A DNA stretch of 35,619 nt, from positions 1 to 35,619 of the IMG/VR virus record IMGVR_UViG_3300045988_023336, one strand, 5' to 3'. Numbering within the stretch: position 1 is the first letter of the stretch; every line of letters starts with the position of its first letter. Shown piece by piece: positions 1 to 35,619 of the stretch. Made by a program: the position numbers and the translations under genes. This DNA is from a virus. The notes beneath the pieces were generated by a model that was given only the letters and a program-made list of their open reading frames with translations, made no database searches and was not told where the DNA came from.

Positions 1-54
1 GCTCTTCTGCTGGTGCAGGCTCTTCTGCTGGTGCAGGCTCTTCTGCTGGTGCAG
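1..54. repeat. Three tandem 18-nt units (gctcttctgctggtgcag) that continue the repeat tract at the window end
   Basis: Direct reading. Bases 1-35 are identical to 35585-35619. The units encode PAPAEE on the minus strand. Confidence 0.9.
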
Positions 55-304
55 GTGCAGGTTTCGCGGCACGCTTAGCACGGGTCTTGGCGCGTTCTGA
101 TTCTACGATCTCGGCCACTGTTTTAGGCTTCTCTTCGTCCTTCACCTTTGTCGCTTCTACAACTGCGTCCGCTAACTTGTCAAGATCGGTTTTACGTTCC
201 GTTACTTCCGGTATGGCTTCGCCGGCCAATTCACGTAAATAGTTAGATGCCGCTAACAATTCCTTCACACTCTCATTTCCGATTAATTCGATTACTACTT
301 TCAT
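1..304 (-). CDS. N-terminal part (101 codons) of a ~209-aa acidic Pro/Ala/Glu-repeat protein; the ORF runs off the window start and resumes at 35259..35619
   Basis: The ATG at 304-302 overlaps the TGA of the upstream HTH gene (ATGA). The minus frame stays open to base 1 (MKVVIELIGNESVKELLAASNYLRELAGEAIPEVTERKTDLDKLADAVVEATKVKDEEKPKTVAEIVESERAKTRAKRAAKPAPAPAEEPAPAEEPAPAEE). Collapsing the 35-nt overlap of the window ends keeps it in frame with 35259..35576. Confidence 0.7.
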   Translation of the reverse strand, partial: MKVVIELIGNESVKELLAASNYLRELAGEAIPEVTERKTDLDKLADAVVEATKVKDEEKPKTVAEIVESERAKTRAKRAAKPAPAPAEEPAPAEEPAPAEE

Positions 305-925: not shown

Positions 926-1086
926 TAATTTAACTCTGATTAACGGTTTTGAGGGTTTGGTAACAGTGTCAATGATAAATAGCCCTTTTTAAACGCATCT
1001 TTCATGCCTTAACTGCGTGCGTATCAGTTAGTTAAGTGGCAAAAACAGGTGAAGTGTCTAAGATGAAACATAGTTTCTCTATTAGT

Positions 1087-1269
1087 TTATATTTAAATAT
1101 TTCCATAAATTCATTCACATATTAATTCATATATTTACATATTTTATAGATTATATTACTATTTCATTCTTATCTCTATATATCATCTTTCCATCTTTGA
1201 CAAATACACTATATTACAGTATAAAGTACTATAAATAAGCAAGTTAAGTGTCAAAGATACAAATTTTAA
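1087..1269. repeat. Copy A of a ~185-bp dispersed direct repeat (partner at 21164..21347)
   Basis: 1087-1108 is identical (22/22) to 21164-21185 and contains the palindrome ATATTTAAATAT. 1185-1269 matches 21263-21347 at 80/85 positions. The intervening AT-rich spacer is 76 nt in copy A and 77 nt in copy B. Confidence 0.9.
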
Positions 1270-1284
1270 TCTTTTACAAGCAAA
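1252..1284 (-). promoter_or_regulatory. Promoter-like element P0 inside repeat copy A (-7 TATCTTTG, -33 TTTG, 21-nt spacer)
   Basis: Plus-strand caaagata at 1252-1259 and caaa at 1281-1284. The equivalent position in copy B is degenerate (aaaagata at 21330-21337, giving TATCTTTT). Confidence 0.4.
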
Positions 1285-1313
1285 AACGCCAACTCGTTAA
1301 GAATCAGCGTTTT
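1283..1313 (-). terminator. Weak stem-loop about 50 nt downstream of the last late gene; candidate late-operon terminator
   Basis: aaaacgc (1283-1289) pairs with gcgtttt (1307-1313) around a 17-nt loop. On the minus-sense RNA the stem runs into UUUUUG. Confidence 0.3.
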
Positions 1314-4895: not shown

Positions 4896-5435
4896 TTAAA
4901 CTTTCGGTATCTTTAGACCGTCATAAGCTGCCTTAGTTAGCGTTACCAACCTGTCACCCGTTGACGCTTCCGGTGTTTTAAGTGTTACTGTTGAAATGCC
5001 GCCGTTGCTGGAATCGGTTGCAAGGTCTGACGCTTCCAAACCGCAAAACGCGCCGGCCAAAAAATAATTACCTAATTTAGATTTGAAAGCTACTCGGAAA
5101 TTCCCTCCTAAAAGTTGGTTAATCACCTTCCGATATTCGGTCAATCCCCCTTGTCTTAGCACCTTAAGAACTACGCTCTGATCTTCTCCCGGCGGGGTTG
5201 TATCATTCACTTTAATAGCGTCTTGATACATTATAGAATTATTTACAGAGTTAACCATGAACCCCTTAGCCCCGGTTAGCATAGTTATAGTACCGACCCC
5301 TCCGGATTCCGAAATAGTGGATATATCACTCGAATTGATGATAATAGCCTCGTCTATTTCCCCAGTCCCGTCTACCTGGGTGAGATTTCCACAATCAAAA
5401 CCAATATCGCTTGCTAGTTTTTTTATACATGCCAT
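4896..5435 (-). CDS. Structural paralogue 3 of 3 (179 aa), tail-tube or capsid-accessory candidate
   Basis: The N-terminus MACIKKLASDIGFDCGN and the C-terminal ...GGISTVTLKTPEA... align with the two upstream paralogues. Confidence 0.7.
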   Translation of the reverse strand: MACIKKLASDIGFDCGNLTQVDGTGEIDEAIIINSSDISTISESGGVGTITMLTGAKGFMVNSVNNSIMYQDAIKVNDTTPPGEDQSVVLKVLRQGGLTEYRKVINQLLGGNFRVAFKSKLGNYFLAGAFCGLEASDLATDSSNGGISTVTLKTPEASTGDRLVTLTKAAYDGLKIPKV

Positions 5436-6520: not shown

Positions 6521-6539
6521 TTAATCTTTGTTTTAATTA

Positions 6540-7496
6540 TTAAACACCTGCTGCGGTGCACAATTTCATATATTGGGGAACTGCCAGCATAGCGTCAGCC
6601 GCAAATACGGTTGTACTGTAATACTTACGGTCCTTAGCGTCACGGATGAACGGATCAATAGTCAGACTTGCATCTTCCAAAGCCAACTGGATGTTAGTTT
6701 TCGGTGAGAAAGCAATGAAAGACTGAACTGTCAAAGCGTCACCCTTAGCACTGTTCGAAACGTGTCTCAACTCGTTCACCTTGTAACCTTCGAAGTAGTA
6801 TGCGGGTTTGCCATTCTCCATGTTAGCTTGTGCCAAATGGTTATCTTTTGCCTCTACCAAGTCCTTGTAAGCACGCATAATGTTGCTAGTTACATAGAAT
6901 TCTGAATCGTCCAGCTGATCCGGGCGTTGGTTGTCGATACACCATTTCAGACATTCCAAAACGTTTGCGCCTGCGCCTGAAGGAACAAGAGCCTTAATAG
7001 ATTCGGTTGATGCCTGCATTTGCTTGATGATACCACCGTTTTTAAACACGGTGTATACACCCGCTGTATCAGTTGCTTTCAGACCGTCCAGCCATACGAG
7101 ACGTAACATGTCAGCTTCCAATACTTTCAGAATTTCATTCTGCATGAACGCTGCCAACTGTGTTTGGTCGAAATCATCTGAAAGGTGAACGCCTTTTGCA
7201 ACCATTTTGCCCCACAAGTCTTGCAGACAAACCACGATAGGCAACTCAATCTGCGCGTGATCGTAGTATTTAACCTTGTCCTGCAATGCGCTATATTTGT
7301 ATTCGCTATCGCAGCCCGCGGAACGTCTTACTGCCTTGTCGGTTGCTGTAAATGTCAAGATAGGTTTGCCCTTTTCAATACCCGCTAACACGGTTACTCC
7401 GTTGGACAATTCGCCCTCCAGCCCAAGTGTCAAAGAAATAACATCGGCCAGGCTGTCGATATTCAATTTGTTTAAATCGCTAAATGTAAATGCCAT
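6540..7496 (-). CDS. Putative major capsid protein (318 aa)
   Basis: Position immediately after the protease/scaffold gene, and a typical size. No motif was verified. Confidence 0.55.
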   Translation of the reverse strand: MAFTFSDLNKLNIDSLADVISLTLGLEGELSNGVTVLAGIEKGKPILTFTATDKAVRRSAGCDSEYKYSALQDKVKYYDHAQIELPIVVCLQDLWGKMVAKGVHLSDDFDQTQLAAFMQNEILKVLEADMLRLVWLDGLKATDTAGVYTVFKNGGIIKQMQASTESIKALVPSGAGANVLECLKWCIDNQRPDQLDDSEFYVTSNIMRAYKDLVEAKDNHLAQANMENGKPAYYFEGYKVNELRHVSNSAKGDALTVQSFIAFSPKTNIQLALEDASLTIDPFIRDAKDRKYYSTTVFAADAMLAVPQYMKLCTAAGV

Positions 7497-21122: not shown

Positions 21123-21147
21123 GTGTCATAGATGGAAAGATGGAAAC
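21123..21147. promoter_or_regulatory. Operator-like boxes GTGTCATAGATGGAAAG plus an overlapping GATGGAAAC
   Basis: 14/15 match to the reverse complement of 21265-21279 and to 1326-1340. Confidence 0.5.
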
Positions 21148-21163
21148 GGGTTTTCCCTATAGA

Positions 21164-21347
21164 TTATATTTAAATATTTCCATAATTTCAATAACATTCA
21201 ATAACAATAGTATAATATAGTTAACTATATTATTACTTATTAATAGTTACTAACTAGTATATATCTTTCCATCTTTGACAAATACACTATATTATATGAT
21301 AAAGTACTATAAATAAGCAAGTTAGGTGTAAAAGATACAAATTTTAA
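21164..21347. repeat. Copy B of the ~185-bp dispersed direct repeat (partner at 1087..1269)
   Basis: See copy A: a 22/22 box, a 77-nt AT-rich spacer and an 80/85 block. Confidence 0.9.
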
Positions 21348-21547
21348 CCTATGACATCAATAATTTGAAAAGTGCGTTCTGCGTCCTGTGGGGCTGGTCA
21401 GGTGTCAAACATGAAATGGCAGTGTCAAAGACATTTTTCACTACTTTTTTGTCAAAAACAGGCTTTTTAGTTAAAATACCGTTAAAATCAAGCTTTCTCT
21501 CTAAAAAGTTTTCTCTCACAAAGTTTTTTGAGAAGTGCGTTAAATTT

Positions 21548-21601
21548 TTTAACTAAAAGTCACCTTAACGTTTTTATACGAAAAGGTGACTTTTAGTTAA
21601 A
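21548..21601. repeat. Perfect 19-bp inverted repeat with a 16-nt loop, 5 nt after the last early gene
   Basis: tttaactaaaagtcacctt (21548-21566) is the exact reverse complement of aaggtgacttttagttaaa (21583-21601). Neither strand has a U-tract 3' of the stem, so it is not a canonical intrinsic terminator. Confidence 0.85.
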
Positions 21602-25878: not shown

Positions 25879-26310
25879 TTATTTATTATTGGTTATTGCT
25901 TCCGCCATCTTCTTAAGCTCGTTGCGTGAGATGTTAACGGTGAACTGGTTGCCCGGGCTGAATATCTGCCATACGCCTGCCATCTTCGGGAAACGCGCAG
26001 TGTGATCCCCTGGGTTGTTTAGGTGCACTATCTCGTTGCTACTTGACGGTTTGTACTCTGCAAGACTTAAGAGCGTCTTAACCGCTGCGTCCGCGTCGCC
26101 TAGATCGATGTCCATCTCTAGGGAACTTGTCCCAGCTAGCTGCCCGGTGATCTGATAGGTTACCGCGTCGCCCTTCGTGACTTCCACGATCTTACATGTT
26201 CCCAGGCGGAAAGACTTAAGCGTTTTTAAACTGCCTGATGCGGTTGATACTTGCGCCATTGCGCTAACTGATAACAAAACTACTGCTAAAATACTGATTA
26301 ACTTTTTCAT
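25879..26310 (-). CDS. Secreted 143-aa protein with a cleavable signal peptide
   Basis: MKKLISILAVVLLSVSAMA-QVST is a classical n-h-c signal peptide with an AxA site and no lipobox Cys. The gene is preceded by the conserved hairpin element. Confidence 0.65.
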   Translation of the reverse strand: MKKLISILAVVLLSVSAMAQVSTASGSLKTLKSFRLGTCKIVEVTKGDAVTYQITGQLAGTSSLEMDIDLGDADAAVKTLLSLAEYKPSSSNEIVHLNNPGDHTARFPKMAGVWQIFSPGNQFTVNISRNELKKMAEAITNNK

Positions 26311-26353
26311 ATCTTTTGGGTGTTGTGGGCGGTGTTACCCGCCCGGGTTAATT
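26311..26353 (-). promoter_or_regulatory. Conserved intergenic element 1: 6-bp GC hairpin (26327-26344) plus a conserved 16-nt pre-ATG tract
   Basis: Plus-strand GGGCGG tgttac CCGCCC. 35/40 positions match 28453-28492. Four of the five differences are two compensatory base-pair flips in the stem. Confidence 0.7.
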
Positions 26354-26770
26354 TTATAATGTTATGTCTATTCTGCAATTATTGCCAGATTTGGTGCTAG
26401 TCACATGCCCAGATAATTCGGGGAATCTGGATACTATATCCTCGGCAGTGGAGAGTATAATCACATTGTCGGTAGTTCCCGCCGTTCTTTTCAGCCAATC
26501 GTATTGCGCGCTGGTTTGTGGAAACAATGTGCGGGTATCGTGTGAGTGGCTTCTAGGCTCGTAACGTACTACTAAACCTTGTTGCGCTAACTTATTGCCT
26601 AATTCAATTACTTCTGATTTGCTAAACTTTTTCACAGCCTTTGTCATAGCCTTTGTTATAGATACCTCTAGGATCGCGCTTTGAAACTCTTTGCGCTCTT
26701 CGCTATTCATTAGGTTCTTATACTTTTTGAAATAGTCTCTCATTCCGTTTTTAAGTTCTTCCAGTGTCAT
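26354..26770 (-). CDS. Hypothetical 138-aa protein, first gene of cassette 1
   Basis: Track ORF. It is preceded by a leader about 90% identical to the one upstream of 28493..28717. Confidence 0.6.
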   Translation of the reverse strand: MTLEELKNGMRDYFKKYKNLMNSEERKEFQSAILEVSITKAMTKAVKKFSKSEVIELGNKLAQQGLVVRYEPRSHSHDTRTLFPQTSAQYDWLKRTAGTTDNVIILSTAEDIVSRFPELSGHVTSTKSGNNCRIDITL

Positions 26771-26810
26771 ACTCTTTAATTTTTAATTGGTTTATTTCCT
26801 TTTGACATTT

Positions 26811-26841
26811 CAAAGATACGGGTTCTTTTCATACTACCAAA
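26811..26841 (-). promoter_or_regulatory. Early promoter P2 (-7 TATCTTTG, -33 TTTG, 19-nt spacer)
   Basis: Plus-strand caaagata at 26811-26818 and caaa at 26838-26841. The -7 box and the ~40-nt leader are nearly identical to P3. Confidence 0.6.
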
Positions 26842-26886
26842 ATATAGGGTAAACTCTTAACTTTGATTTGCATTAAACGCTCTTAG

Positions 26887-27888: not shown

Positions 27889-28079
27889 TCCTCTGTTACA
27901 TAAGTTAGATTAACCCGCTTAACCGTAAATCCCGCTAGGGTCTGACACTCGGCGATATACCGCCGTTCCGCCTCTATGTCCGTTACGACATACGCACCTA
28001 AACTATCCTGGACTTCTGCATAGTCCTGTACTATAACGCCGCCCGTCGTTATAATCACCGCTCTCAATATCTGTATCAT
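27885..28079 (-). CDS. Hypothetical 64-aa protein
   Basis: Track ORF. Its ATG overlaps the stop of the 28-aa micro-ORF. Confidence 0.5.
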   Translation of the reverse strand: MIQILRAVIITTGGVIVQDYAEVQDSLGAYVVTDIEAERRYIAECQTLAGFTVKRVNLTYVTEE

Positions 28080-28162
28080 ACGCTAGTTGTTGGCTCGCAG
28101 CACAATAAGATGAATAATACAAATAGGATCGCCCAAAACGTGTAAACTACAAATTGTTTCAT
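28076..28162 (-). CDS. Unannotated 28-aa hydrophobic micro-ORF
   Basis: MKQFVVYTFWAILFVLFILLCCEPTTSV. The ATG lies 2 nt after the upstream stop, and its TGA overlaps the next ATG (GTATGA). Confidence 0.45.
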   Translation of the reverse strand: MKQFVVYTFWAILFVLFILLCCEPTTSV

Positions 28163-28164
28163 AA

Positions 28165-28452
28165 CTAAAATATTTTAAAGGTTGATATTGCGTGATTAAA
28201 ATCTGATTCGCTAGCGCGCCACACTGTGTACATAGCGTACGTGAAGCGTTCACCCGACCCTAGTTTAGCGCGAATTTCCTTAACTTCTTCAAGGGAAGAA
28301 AAGGTTTTCAGTGCCTTAACTAGTTTCTGCATTTTCAGAGACCGGCTTTCGATCTGTTTCCTTGTGGGTTCTCCGAAGAACCCTTTCTTGTTCCAAAAGC
28401 GGCGGCGGGCTTTTAAATCCGCCTCGCTTAGTTCTCCTGTATTCTGTTTCAT
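28165..28452 (-). CDS. Hypothetical basic 95-aa protein, second gene of cassette 2
   Basis: Track ORF. It is preceded by conserved hairpin element 2. Confidence 0.55.
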   Translation of the reverse strand: MKQNTGELSEADLKARRRFWNKKGFFGEPTRKQIESRSLKMQKLVKALKTFSSLEEVKEIRAKLGSGERFTYAMYTVWRASESDFNHAISTFKIF

Positions 28453-28492
28453 ATCTTTTGAGTGTTGTGGCGGGTGTTACCCCGCCGGGTTA
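28453..28492 (-). promoter_or_regulatory. Conserved intergenic element 2: 6-bp GC hairpin (28469-28486) plus a conserved pre-ATG tract
   Basis: Plus-strand GGCGGG tgttac CCCGCC. This is the covarying partner of 26327-26344. Confidence 0.7.
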
Positions 28493-28717
28493 TTAATTTT
28501 TTAATGATTTGATTTGTCTTTCCAATAAACGCGCCCTACTAGCTTCATTATCTGCAAACTCATTTTGCCCTACGGACCTGTAATACTCGGCATTTTCTTT
28601 AGCGTTTTCAAGTGCTCTTTGTTTTTCCTGGATCATCTGTGATTTTTCGGAATTGTCATTTCTGATTATTACATCTTCTAGAGCGGTTCTTTTTGTTAAT
28701 TCGATAGTTGCTTTCAT
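28493..28717 (-). CDS. 74-aa coiled-coil protein, first gene of cassette 2 (start moved to the ATG at 28717)
   Basis: The track ORF starts at 28753, but its first 12 codons lie in the leader that is non-coding in cassette 1. The ATG at 28717 (MKATIELTK...) is collinear with the ATG at 26770. Confidence 0.55.
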   Translation of the reverse strand: MKATIELTKRTALEDVIIRNDNSEKSQMIQEKQRALENAKENAEYYRSVGQNEFADNEASRARLLERQIKSLKN

Positions 28718-28756
28718 GACTTTAATTTTTAAGTGGTTATTTCCTTTTGACATTTC

Positions 28757-28807
28757 AAAGATACGACTTAATTACGAACTACCAAAACTTTTCTCAAAAA
28801 ACTTTAG
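28757..28807 (-). promoter_or_regulatory. Early promoter P3 (-7 TATCTTTG, -33 TTTG, 18-nt spacer, shared upstream element)
   Basis: Plus-strand caaagata at 28757-28764 and caaa at 28783-28786. caaaaaactttag at 28795-28807 is identical to 913-925. Confidence 0.6.
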
Positions 28808-35259: not shown

Positions 35260-35619
35260 TATAGGCGGCTCGAAATGTATGCAACAAAATCGTTAAACAT
35301 CTCTTCCTTCAACGTCGGGAAACTGGAAGCGCCTACGCTTTCAAAAGCTTCCTGTACAATCGGGCGTTTCTTCGCGTTTAGAGCCTTCATAGCCCATGAT
35401 TTACAATCGTCGATAGTGTGCTCCGTTTCTGTCTTAGCGGGCTTCTCTGATGGTGCCGGAGCAGGTTCTTCCACTGGTGCCGGAGCAGGTTCTTCCACTG
35501 GTGCCGGAGCAGGTTCTTCCACTGGTGCGGGTTCTTCTGCCTTTGCAGGTTCTTCCACTGGTGTAGGCTCTTCCACTGGTGCAGGCTCTTCTGCTGGTGC
35601 AGGCTCTTCTGCTGGTGCA
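35259..35619 (-). CDS. C-terminal part of the wrap-around acidic PAPxEE-repeat protein (continuation of 1..304)
   Basis: The frame of track ORF 35259..35576 remains open to the window end. The repeat EEPAPAPV occurs three times, followed by a globular C-terminus (TEHTIDDCKSWAMKALNAKKRPIVQEAFESVGASSFPTLKEEMFNDFVAYISSRL). Confidence 0.7.
   Translation of the reverse strand, partial: APAEEPAPAEEPAPVEEPTPVEEPAKAEEPAPVEEPAPAPVEEPAPAPVEEPAPAPSEKPAKTETEHTIDDCKSWAMKALNAKKRPIVQEAFESVGASSFPTLKEEMFNDFVAYISSRL
35451..35619. repeat. In-frame tandem repeats: 3 perfect 24-nt units (35451-35522), then degenerate 18-nt units running to the window end
   Basis: tggtgccggagcaggttcttccac occurs three times. Then ggctcttc(c/t)(a/g)ctggtgca units follow. 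The last 35 nt equal the first 35 nt of the window. Confidence 0.9.

What the first reader, a model, noticed from the sequence alone, without database searches (positions are those of the whole stretch)
26311..26353. Intergenic hairpin duplicated at two loci with two compensatory base-pair flips
The 40-nt tracts immediately upstream of the ATGs at 26310 and 28452 differ at only 5 positions. Four of those five differences are paired. The stem GGGCGG/CCGCCC (26327-26332 / 26339-26344) becomes GGCGGG/CCCGCC (28469-28474 / 28481-28486). That flips two adjacent base pairs while keeping the 6-bp stem, the loop (minus-sense GUAACA) and the flanks (ACAACAC(C/T)CAAAAGAU-AUG). Covariation of this kind argues for selection on structure, either RNA or cruciform/protein-bound DNA. 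On the sense RNA the hairpin sits about 10 nt after one stop codon and 16 nt before the next start, and it has no U-tract, so it is not a standard terminator. Possible roles are a translational-operator hairpin, a processing or stability site, or a protein-dependent terminator/antiterminator.
Basis: seen in the sequence. Interest (0 to 1): 0.65.

Follow-up and report, generated by a model that had tools for sequence, protein, structure and literature searches.

The report
Portable hairpin linker between phage genes
The duplicated hairpin is real: it is a ~45-base "stop codon, RNA hairpin, short leader, start codon" linker that gut Bacteroides phages reuse between many different small early genes and that marks where those genes get swapped, a promoter-less relative of shuffling cassettes known from T4-type phages.

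Summary
Two minus-strand copies (26356..26308 and 28495..28450) differ at 5 of 40 positions, and 4 of those flip two adjacent stem pairs.

The window is a ~36 kb Bacteroides phage. In the 51 oriented loci, 53 copies sit at 29 different gene-pair junctions. They occur only in two variable regions just downstream of two Bacteroides-type promoters, at 0-3 copies in the mapped loci (BLAST reports up to 4 places in some phage genomes).

Only two stem versions exist (GGGCGG/CCGCCC and GGCGGG/CCCGCC), so the covariation is one dimorphism, not repeated events. Sense-strand RNA structure is supported in other ways:
- Diverged clades replace the GUAACA loop with GNRA tetraloops (five variants).
- G.U pairs fall on the sense strand.
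- Loop length varies while the stem does not.

The element has no U-tract and no promoter, and the next cistron starts 15-18 nt downstream. Canonical terminators sit elsewhere in the genome. Homology between phages breaks exactly at the element, and reciprocal recombinant junctions exist.

Best reading: a portable intercistronic RNA hairpin, most likely a decay barrier or weak attenuator, that also serves as a short-homology recombination joint. It is a new variant of a known kind (PeSL-like, without a promoter). The biochemical role is inferred, not shown.

The parts
26308..26356 (-). H element copy A. Stop TAA 26356-26354; 5' flank AATTAACCC 26353-26345; 5' arm GGGCGG 26344-26339; loop GUAACA 26338-26333; 3' arm CCGCCC 26332-26327; CA-rich leader 26326-26311; ATG 26310-26308.
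   Evidence: (D12)
28450..28495 (-). H element copy B. Stop TAA 28495-28493; flank TAACCC 28492-28487; 5' arm GGCGGG 28486-28481; loop GUAACA 28480-28475; 3' arm CCCGCC 28474-28469; leader 28468-28453; ATG 28452-28450.
   Evidence: (D12)
26771..26846 (-). Promoter plus 5'UTR cassette P2. TTTG 26841-26838, 19-nt spacer, TAtcTTTG 26818-26811, then a ~40-nt UTR. This is the 5' boundary of the swappable locus 2.
   Evidence: (D3, D7). The consensus TTTG-N19-21-TAnnTTTG is from established knowledge of Bacteroides promoters.
28718..28791 (-). Promoter plus 5'UTR cassette P1. TTTG 28786-28783, 19-nt spacer, TAtcTTTG 28763-28756, and a UTR 79% identical to that of P2. This is the 5' boundary of the swappable locus 1.
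   Evidence: (D7)
28493..28717 (-). Accessory ORF, 74 aa from ATG 28717 (cluster 53), between P1 and copy B. In other phages the same gene sits at locus 2.
26354..26770 (-). Accessory ORF, 138 aa (cluster 92), between P2 and copy A. In L005 the same gene sits at locus 1.
28165..28452 (-). Gene started by copy B, 95 aa (cluster 12). It is an ORFan with no Pfam or PHROG match.
25879..26310 (-). Gene started by copy A, 143 aa with a signal-peptide-like N-terminus (cluster 7). It is the first gene of the conserved block 7-8-9.

Best explanation
The element (H) is a portable intercistronic cassette of about 45 nt, read on the mRNA. It consists of A/U-rich stop codons, a 6-7 bp all-G/C hairpin capped by GUAACA or a GNRA tetraloop, a 15-18 nt G-poor leader, and the next AUG.

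Shown:
- It lies inside polycistronic early transcripts, only in the two variable regions that follow two Bacteroides-type promoters.
- It lies between accessory ORFans, or between the last ORFan and the conserved genes.
- Homology between phages breaks at H, and genes flanked by the promoter-UTR cassette and H move between the two loci and between phages.

Inferred mechanism:
- The hairpin acts through host machinery as mRNA punctuation. Most likely it is a barrier to 3'->5' exonucleases, or a processing boundary, that lets the promoter-proximal accessory cistron accumulate. It may also act as a weak, U-tract-independent pause or attenuator.
- The structure-free CA-rich leader keeps initiation of the next gene unaffected.
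- The conserved 45 nt, together with the ~70-nt promoter-UTR cassette, provide homology patches for the phage's own exonuclease/annealase. Recombination there shuffles accessory genes.
For: Family and structure:
- 53 copies in 51 oriented loci. Stem-to-ATG distance is 15-18 nt in all of them (16 nt in 33). Stop-to-stem distance is 6-7 nt in 32.
- 87% of pair cells form standard pairs, against 74.5% in shuffles (0/500) and 42-57% for slid controls. Two pairs show double-sided change.
- All tetraloops are GNRA on the sense strand (GAAA, GAGA, GCAA, GCGA, GGAA).
- G.U pairs fall on the sense strand.

Not a terminator or promoter:
- There is no U-tract and the next cistron follows.
- Canonical hairpin-plus-U terminators exist at the ends of the gene blocks.
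- No TTTG-N19-TAnnTTTG motif lies inside H.

Junction role:
- 12 upstream families, 12 downstream families and 29 distinct gene pairs.
- Gene maps place H only after P1 or P2.
- The L010 junction is 95% identical to the window's copy-B upstream side and 91.5% identical to its copy-A downstream side. L005 is the converse.
- Chimeric flank/stem/leader combinations occur.
- The phage encodes an exonuclease, a gp2.5-like annealing protein and a VRR-NUC nuclease.

Host-machinery logic:
- 0-3 copies in the mapped close relatives with identical core genes, and up to 4 BLAST places in some phage genomes.
- The same hairpin with a 16-17 nt spacing occurs in B. thetaiotaomicron phages and in an unrelated Porphyromonas-phage-like group.

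Leader:
- The two H-led start regions rank 2nd and 3rd of 43 genes for predicted accessibility (0.80 against a median of 0.55). Deleting the hairpin in silico does not change this.
Against: - There are no transcript-end, half-life or reporter data, so the biochemical role is inference by analogy (REP elements, T4 intercistronic tetraloop hairpins, PeSL stem-loops).
- The covariation is a single dimorphism. It could be kept perfect by DNA-level quasipalindrome template switching or by gene conversion rather than by selection on RNA.
- The stem sequence is almost invariant across clades whose primase is only 69% identical. That could instead mean sequence-specific recognition by a protein.
- Phages with no copy are viable, so any benefit is modest.
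- One copy (L057) lies 35 nt from the ATG.
Confidence: 0.45

Rival explanations
1. H is a factor-dependent transcription signal: a hairpin-stabilised pause, a NusA/NusG- or Rho-assisted attenuator, or a lambda-nut-like antiterminator loading site. It would separate immediate-early accessory genes from delayed-early replication genes.
For: - In the window each copy follows the first cistron after an early promoter.
- GNRA-type loops resemble boxB (own knowledge).
- Bacteroides RNAP uses hairpin-stabilised pauses in CPS leaders (PMC11685472).
- A PeSL stem-loop alone reduced lacZ expression like a strong terminator (PMC2839356).
- The C/A-rich, G-poor leader is rut-like.
Against: - There is no U-tract.
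- Essential replication genes lie downstream without another promoter.
- Copy number is 0-3 in the mapped relatives with the same core genes, including tandem copies around tiny ORFs.
- No partner gene co-occurs. The arginine-rich 95-aa ORF is present without H (L002, L047) and absent with H (L005, L006, L008).
- No terminator-like site stands out between H and the operon end: hits on the coding strand are few and lie inside ORFs, and the total (17) matches the shuffled expectation of 16.5.
Confidence: 0.13
2. H is a translation element for the downstream gene. It would be a positioned upstream hairpin that docks or limits the 30S subunit on SD-less Bacteroides mRNAs, uncouples the gene from upstream translation, or serves as an operator for an RNA-binding repressor.
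For: - The hairpin ends 15-18 nt before the AUG in six unrelated leader sequences.
- The leader is A/C-rich and very accessible.
- Bacteroidetes initiation depends on A-rich unstructured leaders (PMC7366714).
Against: - In silico removal of the hairpin does not change start-site accessibility.
- The spacing is equally explained by genome compaction down to the minimal ribosome footprint.
- Twelve unrelated downstream genes argue against a gene-specific operator.
- The same genes are expressed without H in other phages, using short TTAAAA-type linkers.
Confidence: 0.12
3. H is a DNA-level element with no RNA role. It would be a palindrome bound by a protein, a cruciform, or a recombination hot spot (for example a Chi-like G-rich motif presented on both strands) that promotes module exchange.
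For: - H sits exactly at mosaic breakpoints.
- The stem sequence is nearly invariant across diverged clades.
- GGCGGG is over-represented in the window, 28 against 17 expected.
- The phage carries recombination genes.
Against: - GNRA loops and G.U pairs are strand-specific features of the transcribed strand.
- The loop is 4 or 6 nt, which would change the half-site spacing for a duplex-binding dimer.
- H always has a fixed orientation and position relative to ORFs.
- The element is absent from host genomes.
Confidence: 0.12
4. H is a neutral junction scar or hitch-hiker. It would be a leftover hairpin (for example a decayed moron terminator) spread by recombination and kept perfectly paired by gene conversion or quasipalindrome template switching, without a current function.
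For: - Only two stem haplotypes exist.
- H is dispensable in several phages.
- Copies are very similar to one another.
Against: - The stem persists while flanks, loop and leader diverge beyond alignment between clades.
- Loop variation obeys the GNRA rule.
- A neutral 18-nt all-G/C insert would not be expected to survive in compact, A/T-rich intergenic spacers.
Confidence: 0.1
5. H terminates antisense (plus-strand) transcription. On the plus strand the hairpin is followed by GGUUAAUUUU.
For: The terminator scan lists both copies on the plus strand.
Against: - The U-rich run starts 3-4 nt after the stem and is interrupted.
- It is simply the complement of the stop-codon-rich 5' flank.
- GNRA and G.U features are on the other strand.
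- No plus-strand genes or promoters are evident.
Confidence: 0.04

Closest known systems
PeSL (promoter-early stem-loop) cassettes of T4-type phages (Arbiol et al. 2010, PMC2839356; Comeau et al. 2014, PMC4122927)
   Same: - Short repeated intergenic cassettes running from the upstream stop codon in an A/T-rich stretch, through a G-run/C-run stem-loop, to the translation start of the next gene.
- Concentrated in hyperplastic regions next to ORFans.
- Recombination between copies shuffles, deletes and inserts genes.
   Different: - A PeSL contains a strong early promoter. H does not.
- In this phage the promoter-UTR is a separate cassette at the 5' end of each variable region.
- The PeSL stem-loop is described as a terminator/attenuator. 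H must be read through to express downstream essential genes.
- The host and the promoter and translation signals are Bacteroides-type. The phage is a 36-kb, T7-like-replication siphovirus-size genome, not a T4-like one.
Extra-stable tetraloop hairpins in T4 intercistronic regions (Tuerk et al. 1988, recalled from own knowledge, not read here) and REP/intercistronic stabiliser hairpins in bacterial operons
   Same: These are short G/C stems capped by special tetraloops, placed between cistrons of a polycistronic mRNA, without a U-tract. They are thought to act as decay barriers that give differential cistron abundance.
   Different: - The loop class here is GNRA or GUAACA rather than UUCG.
- H carries conserved flanks (stop codons and leader) and behaves as a recombining unit.
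- REPs are host chromosomal repeats, whereas H is absent from host genomes.
Start-associated sequences (SAS/ESAS) of cluster K mycobacteriophages (Pope et al. 2011, PMC3203893)
   Same: - Repeats in one orientation just upstream of the start codons of a subset of non-structural genes.
- Half of them carry inverted repeats with a variable spacer.
- Their function is unknown and is suspected to be translational.
   Different: - SAS is a 13-bp SD-containing motif and the ESAS repeats are 17-bp and imperfect.
- SAS/ESAS are tied to particular gene families. H is not tied to any gene.
Lambda-type nut site (boxB hairpin)
   Same: A short G/C stem with a GNRA-like loop, located just after the first cistron of an early operon.
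   Different: - No boxA was identified.
- There is no conserved N-like partner.
- Copy number is variable and copies can be tandem.
- No downstream terminators need overriding.
Integron gene cassettes (ORF + attC downstream of Pc)
   Same: A promoter is followed by promoter-less small ORFs, each ending in a hairpin-forming repeat. The order and content of the cassettes vary between relatives.
   Different: - attC is 57-141 bp with R/L boxes and needs an IntI integrase.
- H is an 18-20 nt perfect hairpin.
- No integrase was detected among the proteins screened, and exchange is by homology.

Membership tests
Intrinsic (Rho-independent) terminator | G/C-rich hairpin | tested here: met
   6-bp all-G/C stem, -14.3 and -14.8 kcal/mol.
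Intrinsic (Rho-independent) terminator | U-tract of about 7-9 nt directly 3' of the stem | tested here: not met
   The stem is followed by ACAACACCC or UAUAAAAC in all copies. The window's canonical terminator-like sites lie elsewhere.
Intrinsic (Rho-independent) terminator | Located at the end of a transcription unit | tested here: not met
   The next cistron starts 15-18 nt downstream. Core replication genes follow without a new promoter.
PeSL cassette | Stem-loop lies between an upstream stop codon in an A/T-rich stretch and the downstream translation start | tested here: met
PeSL cassette | Contains a host-type early promoter | tested here: not met
   No TTTG-N19-21-TAnnTTTG motif within H. 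The promoters are separate cassettes at 26846-26811 and 28791-28756.
PeSL cassette | Clusters in hyperplastic regions next to ORFans and marks recombination joints | tested here: met
PeSL cassette | Stem-loop terminates or attenuates transcription; mini-circles form | not testable with these tools
   This needs reporter assays and PCR on phage DNA.
Lambda-type nut site | boxB-like hairpin with a GNRA-type loop on early mRNA | tested here: inconclusive
   GNRA tetraloops occur in diverged clades, but the window copies have a hexaloop.
Lambda-type nut site | Cognate N-like protein and downstream terminators co-occur with the site | tested here: not met
   No gene co-varies with the presence of H. 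No convincing minus-strand terminator lies between H and 21600.
REP / host repetitive extragenic palindrome | Many copies in the host chromosome | tested here: not met
   The scan of 185,579 species genomes gave 22 hits, none in Bacteroides. The count is near the roughly 17 expected by chance by my own estimate. L072 is a chance ptsH-ptsI hairpin.
Integron attC | 57-141 bp imperfect inverted repeat with R/L core sites, plus an integron integrase | tested here: not met
   H is an 18-20 nt perfect hairpin. GTTRRRY/RYYYAAC cores are absent on reading the sequence. No integrase was found among the early or replication proteins screened.
Any Rfam family | Match to a curated covariance model | tested here: not met
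   No match at E<=1 anywhere in the window.

The most novel reading that the evidence does not exclude
Together with the conserved promoter-UTR cassette, H defines two 'landing pads' in these Bacteroides phages. Any ORF placed between a P-UTR cassette (5' arm) and an H hairpin (3' arm) can be expressed at once and exchanged between loci and phages by the phage's own exonuclease/annealase. This would be an integrase-free, integron-like cassette system whose 3' arm is at the same time a Bacteroidales-specific, U-tract-independent RNA punctuation signal read by host RNA polymerase or RNases.
Probability: 0.2. Interest if true: 0.7.

Novelty: new variant of a known kind. Interest (0 to 1): 0.45.

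Why it matters
- Almost nothing is known about post-transcriptional signals in Bacteroides phages, or about how their early accessory genes (probably host-takeover or anti-defence) are acquired.
- This element gives a concrete, testable RNA signal that works in an SD-less host, and a mapped recombination joint that explains mosaicism in a common group of gut phages.
- Practically, the promoter-UTR and hairpin-leader cassettes are ready-made parts and homology arms for inserting genes into Bacteroides phages.
- If the hairpin proves to stop or pause Bacteroides RNA polymerase without a U-tract, that would bear on how transcription is punctuated in this phylum.

Tried and rejected
- **Rfam.** A scan of the whole window at E<=1 found nothing.
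- **Host repeat or CRISPR-repeat mimic.** The genome-collection scan found no Bacteroides hits, only a near-chance number of hits in unrelated, mostly G/C-rich genomes. The identical hairpin in a Ruminococcaceae MAG lies between ptsH and ptsI and is a chance match.
- **Hairpin as an insulator that keeps the start region open.** In silico deletion leaves accessibility unchanged, 0.80 against 0.82 and 0.80.
- **Lambda N-like partner.** The 95-aa ORF after copy B has a KARRRFWNKKG motif, but its presence does not track H.
- **Functions of flanking genes.** No Pfam or PHROG hits, apart from the VRR-NUC nuclease.
- **Literature on this phage group.** Nothing was found on it, and nothing on Bacteroides terminators that lack U-tracts.
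- **Sigma-70 promoter scan.** It is not informative for Bacteroides.
- **Chi-like reading of GGCGG.** There is only modest over-representation and a coding-strand bias. This was not pursued.

Full report
**1.

Both tracts were read on the coding (minus) strand.
- Copy A: TAA-AATTAACCC-GGGCGG-GTAACA-CCGCCC-ACAACACCCAAAAGAT-ATG (26356..26308).
- Copy B: TAA-TAACCC-GGCGGG-GTAACA-CCCGCC-ACAACACTCAAAAGAT-ATG (28495..28450).

The 40 nt before the two ATGs differ at five positions. Four of them convert two adjacent stem pairs (G-C, C-G) into (C-G, G-C). The 19-nt leader-plus-ATG occurs twice against 0.01 expected, and the pair is repeat family D12. Each copy is the minimum-free-energy hairpin, at -14.3 and -14.8 kcal/mol. 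A scan of the whole minus strand for perfect G/C-rich hairpins finds only these two in intergenic positions. No Rfam family matches anywhere in the window.

**2. What the window is**

It is a ~36 kb Bacteroides phage with all genes on the minus strand. Its closest relative is Bacteroides phage BO668P2, at 94% identity over this region. The early region encodes:
- an exonuclease, a gp2.5-like single-strand annealing protein and a DNA polymerase;
- a primase-helicase, a VRR-NUC nuclease and a second helicase.

The genes next to the hairpins have no family matches.

Two Bacteroides-type promoters (TTTG-N19-TAtcTTTG) with nearly identical ~40-nt 5'UTRs lie at 28791..28718 and 26846..26771. In the window each hairpin copy follows the first ORF after one of these promoters.

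**3. A family of copies**

I fetched 50 related loci through the primase, and more by pattern scans and BLAST. nhmmer, regex and junction analysis gave 53 copies in 51 oriented loci and 52 distinct sequences.

Positions are very regular:
- The stem ends 15-18 nt before an ATG in all 53 copies, and 16 nt in 33 of them.
- The last stop codon lies 6-7 nt before the stem in 32 copies.

Only two stem haplotypes occur: A (GGGCGG/CCGCCC, 23 copies) and B (GGCGGG/CCCGCC, 26 copies). There are four single variants:
- one A.G mismatch;
- one G.U pair on the sense strand;
- two broken terminal pairs.

Scans that fix only the flank and loop and leave the stem free found no third haplotype in IMG/VR or in metagenome contigs.

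On alignment A1:
- 87% of pair cells are standard pairs, against 74.5% in shuffles (0/500) and 42-57% when partners are slid.
- Two pairs show double-sided change in 16-17 of the 52 rows.

**4. Independent evidence for a sense-strand RNA hairpin**

- In clades whose primase is only 69% identical, and in B. caccae and B. thetaiotaomicron phages, the hexaloop is replaced by a tetraloop. With no constraint placed on the loop, every version is GNRA on the sense strand: GAAA, GAGA, GCAA, GCGA, GGAA.
- There the stem has a seventh G-C pair and a terminal G.U (8 rows). G.U pairs on the sense strand outnumber the single variant that would be G.U on the antisense strand by 9 to 1.
- Loop length (4 or 6 nt), flanks and leader diverge while the stem is kept. 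That fits a folded single strand, not a duplex operator with fixed half-site spacing.
- The hexaloop varies as G-U-[A/C]-[A/G]-C-[A/G].

**5. It is not a standard terminator or promoter**

- The stem is followed by ACAACACCC or UAUAAAAC, never by a U-tract.
- The next cistron of the same operon starts 16 nt later.
- Conserved replication genes downstream have no other promoter.
- The genome does contain canonical terminator-like structures, but at the ends of gene blocks. One is a 19-bp stem at 21598..21545 (-34.9 kcal/mol, z = -10.4). The other is a 13-bp stem plus a U run at 1313..1283.
- H contains no Bacteroides promoter motif.

**6. The main comparative result: H is a reusable junction at mosaic breakpoints**

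Gene-cluster maps show a conserved order: P1-[variable ORFans]-13-23-6-4-P2-[variable ORFans]-7-8-9-0-helicase.

- H occurs only in the two variable regions, at 0-3 copies per mapped locus. BLAST reports up to 4 places in some complete phage genomes. Copies are sometimes tandem, 220-260 nt apart, around a tiny ORF.
- Three phages with both regions fully covered have no copy (L002, L003, L047).
- H follows 12 gene families, precedes 12, and forms 29 distinct gene pairs. Five families occur on either side.
- The same accessory genes are found at locus 1 in some phages and at locus 2 in others.
- Homology between phages stops at H.
- The L010 junction is 95% identical to the window upstream of copy B and 91.5% identical to the window downstream of copy A. 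L005 is the converse.
- Chimeric combinations of 5' flank, stem type and leader show crossovers inside the element.
- Junctions without H use short A/T-rich linkers, some with the same outer flanks.

**7. Distribution**

- The element is absent from host genomes. One genome per species was scanned, giving 22 hits, near the roughly 17 I estimate by chance.
- The identical hairpin in a Ruminococcaceae MAG lies between ptsH and ptsI and is coincidental.
- The A-type stem with GNRA loops and a 16-17 nt spacing to the ATG recurs in BT498P1-like B. thetaiotaomicron phages. It also recurs in an unrelated Porphyromonas-phage-like group, again between small early genes whose downstream partner varies.

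**8. Mechanism**

Shown: a conserved hairpin with sense-strand RNA signatures; an intercistronic position; no U-tract and no promoter; dispensability; and a role as a recombination joint.

Inferred: because copy number varies freely and no partner gene co-occurs, the hairpin most likely works through host machinery. My best estimate is a decay or processing barrier for the promoter-proximal accessory cistron, possibly with weak attenuation. The basis is analogy with REP elements, T4 intercistronic tetraloop hairpins (recalled from my own knowledge) and PeSL stem-loops (PMC2839356).

The leader is G-poor. The two H-led start regions rank 2nd and 3rd of 43 genes for predicted accessibility, but deleting the hairpin in silico changes nothing. 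The hairpin is therefore built not to disturb the next start, rather than to help it. The constant 16-nt spacing can be explained by compaction down to the ribosome footprint.

The rivals cannot be excluded without experiments. They are a factor-dependent pause, terminator or antiterminator; a translational element; a DNA-level hot spot; a neutral scar; and an antisense terminator. The report weights each of them.

**9. Comparison and novelty**

The closest described system is the PeSL cassette of T4-type phages.
- Same: the stop/stem-loop/start layout, the association with ORFans, and recombination-mediated shuffling.
- Different: H fails the defining promoter feature, and it must be read through.

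It also resembles the SAS/ESAS repeats of cluster K mycobacteriophages. Superficially it resembles nut boxB and integron attC, and it fails the defining features of both.

I file it as a new variant of a known kind: a promoter-less hairpin-leader junction cassette in Bacteroides phages. No literature on it was found. Interest is moderate. The structure and the shuffling are solid and useful for engineering Bacteroides phages. The biochemical role remains to be tested.

Noticed in passing
window 1-71 and 35453-35619: Both ends of the window carry the same 18-nt tandem coding repeat (GCTCTTCTGCTGGTGCAG-like). The window therefore looks like a circularly permuted complete genome cut inside a repeat-rich gene (family D1).
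   Followed up: no
window 1060-1278 and 21137-21356: A ~220-nt non-coding block is duplicated (91% and 77% identity) in the two large intergenic regions. It has repeated TCCATCTTTGACA motifs and a TAtcTTTG -7-like box, and may hold promoters for the structural operons.
   Followed up: partly
window 21545-21598 (-) and 1283-1313 (-): Canonical terminator-like hairpins sit at the ends of gene blocks. One has a 19-bp stem (-34.9 kcal/mol, z = -10.4). The other has a 13-bp stem followed by a U run.
   Followed up: partly
window 28717-28753 (-): The longest-ORF start at 28753 lies 3 nt after the promoter -7 box. The real start is probably ATG 28717 (MKATIELTKR). In locus L013 that same start is directly preceded by an H element.
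   Followed up: partly
window ~28076-28162 (-): A conserved 28-aa hydrophobic mini-ORF (MKQFVVYTFWAILFVLFILLCCEPTTSV) fills the apparent gap between the 95-aa and 64-aa genes. In many relatives it is the gene immediately after H.
   Followed up: no
window gene starts at 5435, 12885, 20315, 25446 (-): A few genes carry AGGAGG-like Shine-Dalgarno sequences. Most genes instead have a TTAAAA motif at -16..-10, which is the SD-less Bacteroidetes pattern.
   Followed up: no
window 28165-28452 (-): The 95-aa ORF after copy B has an N-terminal arginine-rich stretch (KARRRFWNKKG) reminiscent of lambda N. Its presence does not correlate with the hairpin across relatives.
   Followed up: partly
whole window: GGGCGG is strongly biased to the coding strand (19 against 4). 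GGCGGG is over-represented (28 against 17 +/- 4 expected).
   Followed up: no
L158 2816-2870: An otherwise typical H copy is followed by ACG instead of ATG at the start of the downstream gene.
   Followed up: no
L072 (Ruminococcaceae MAG UBA3751) 6531-6550, minus strand: An identical GGGCGG-GTAACA-CCGCCC hairpin lies between chromosomal ptsH and ptsI, 16 nt before an SD-led ATG. I judged it a chance identity.
   Followed up: partly
L106, L127, L136, L143, L137: A Porphyromonas-phage-like group carries CGGGCGG-GCAA-CCGCCCA hairpins 16-17 nt upstream of the ATG, between small early genes. The downstream gene differs between contigs.
   Followed up: partly
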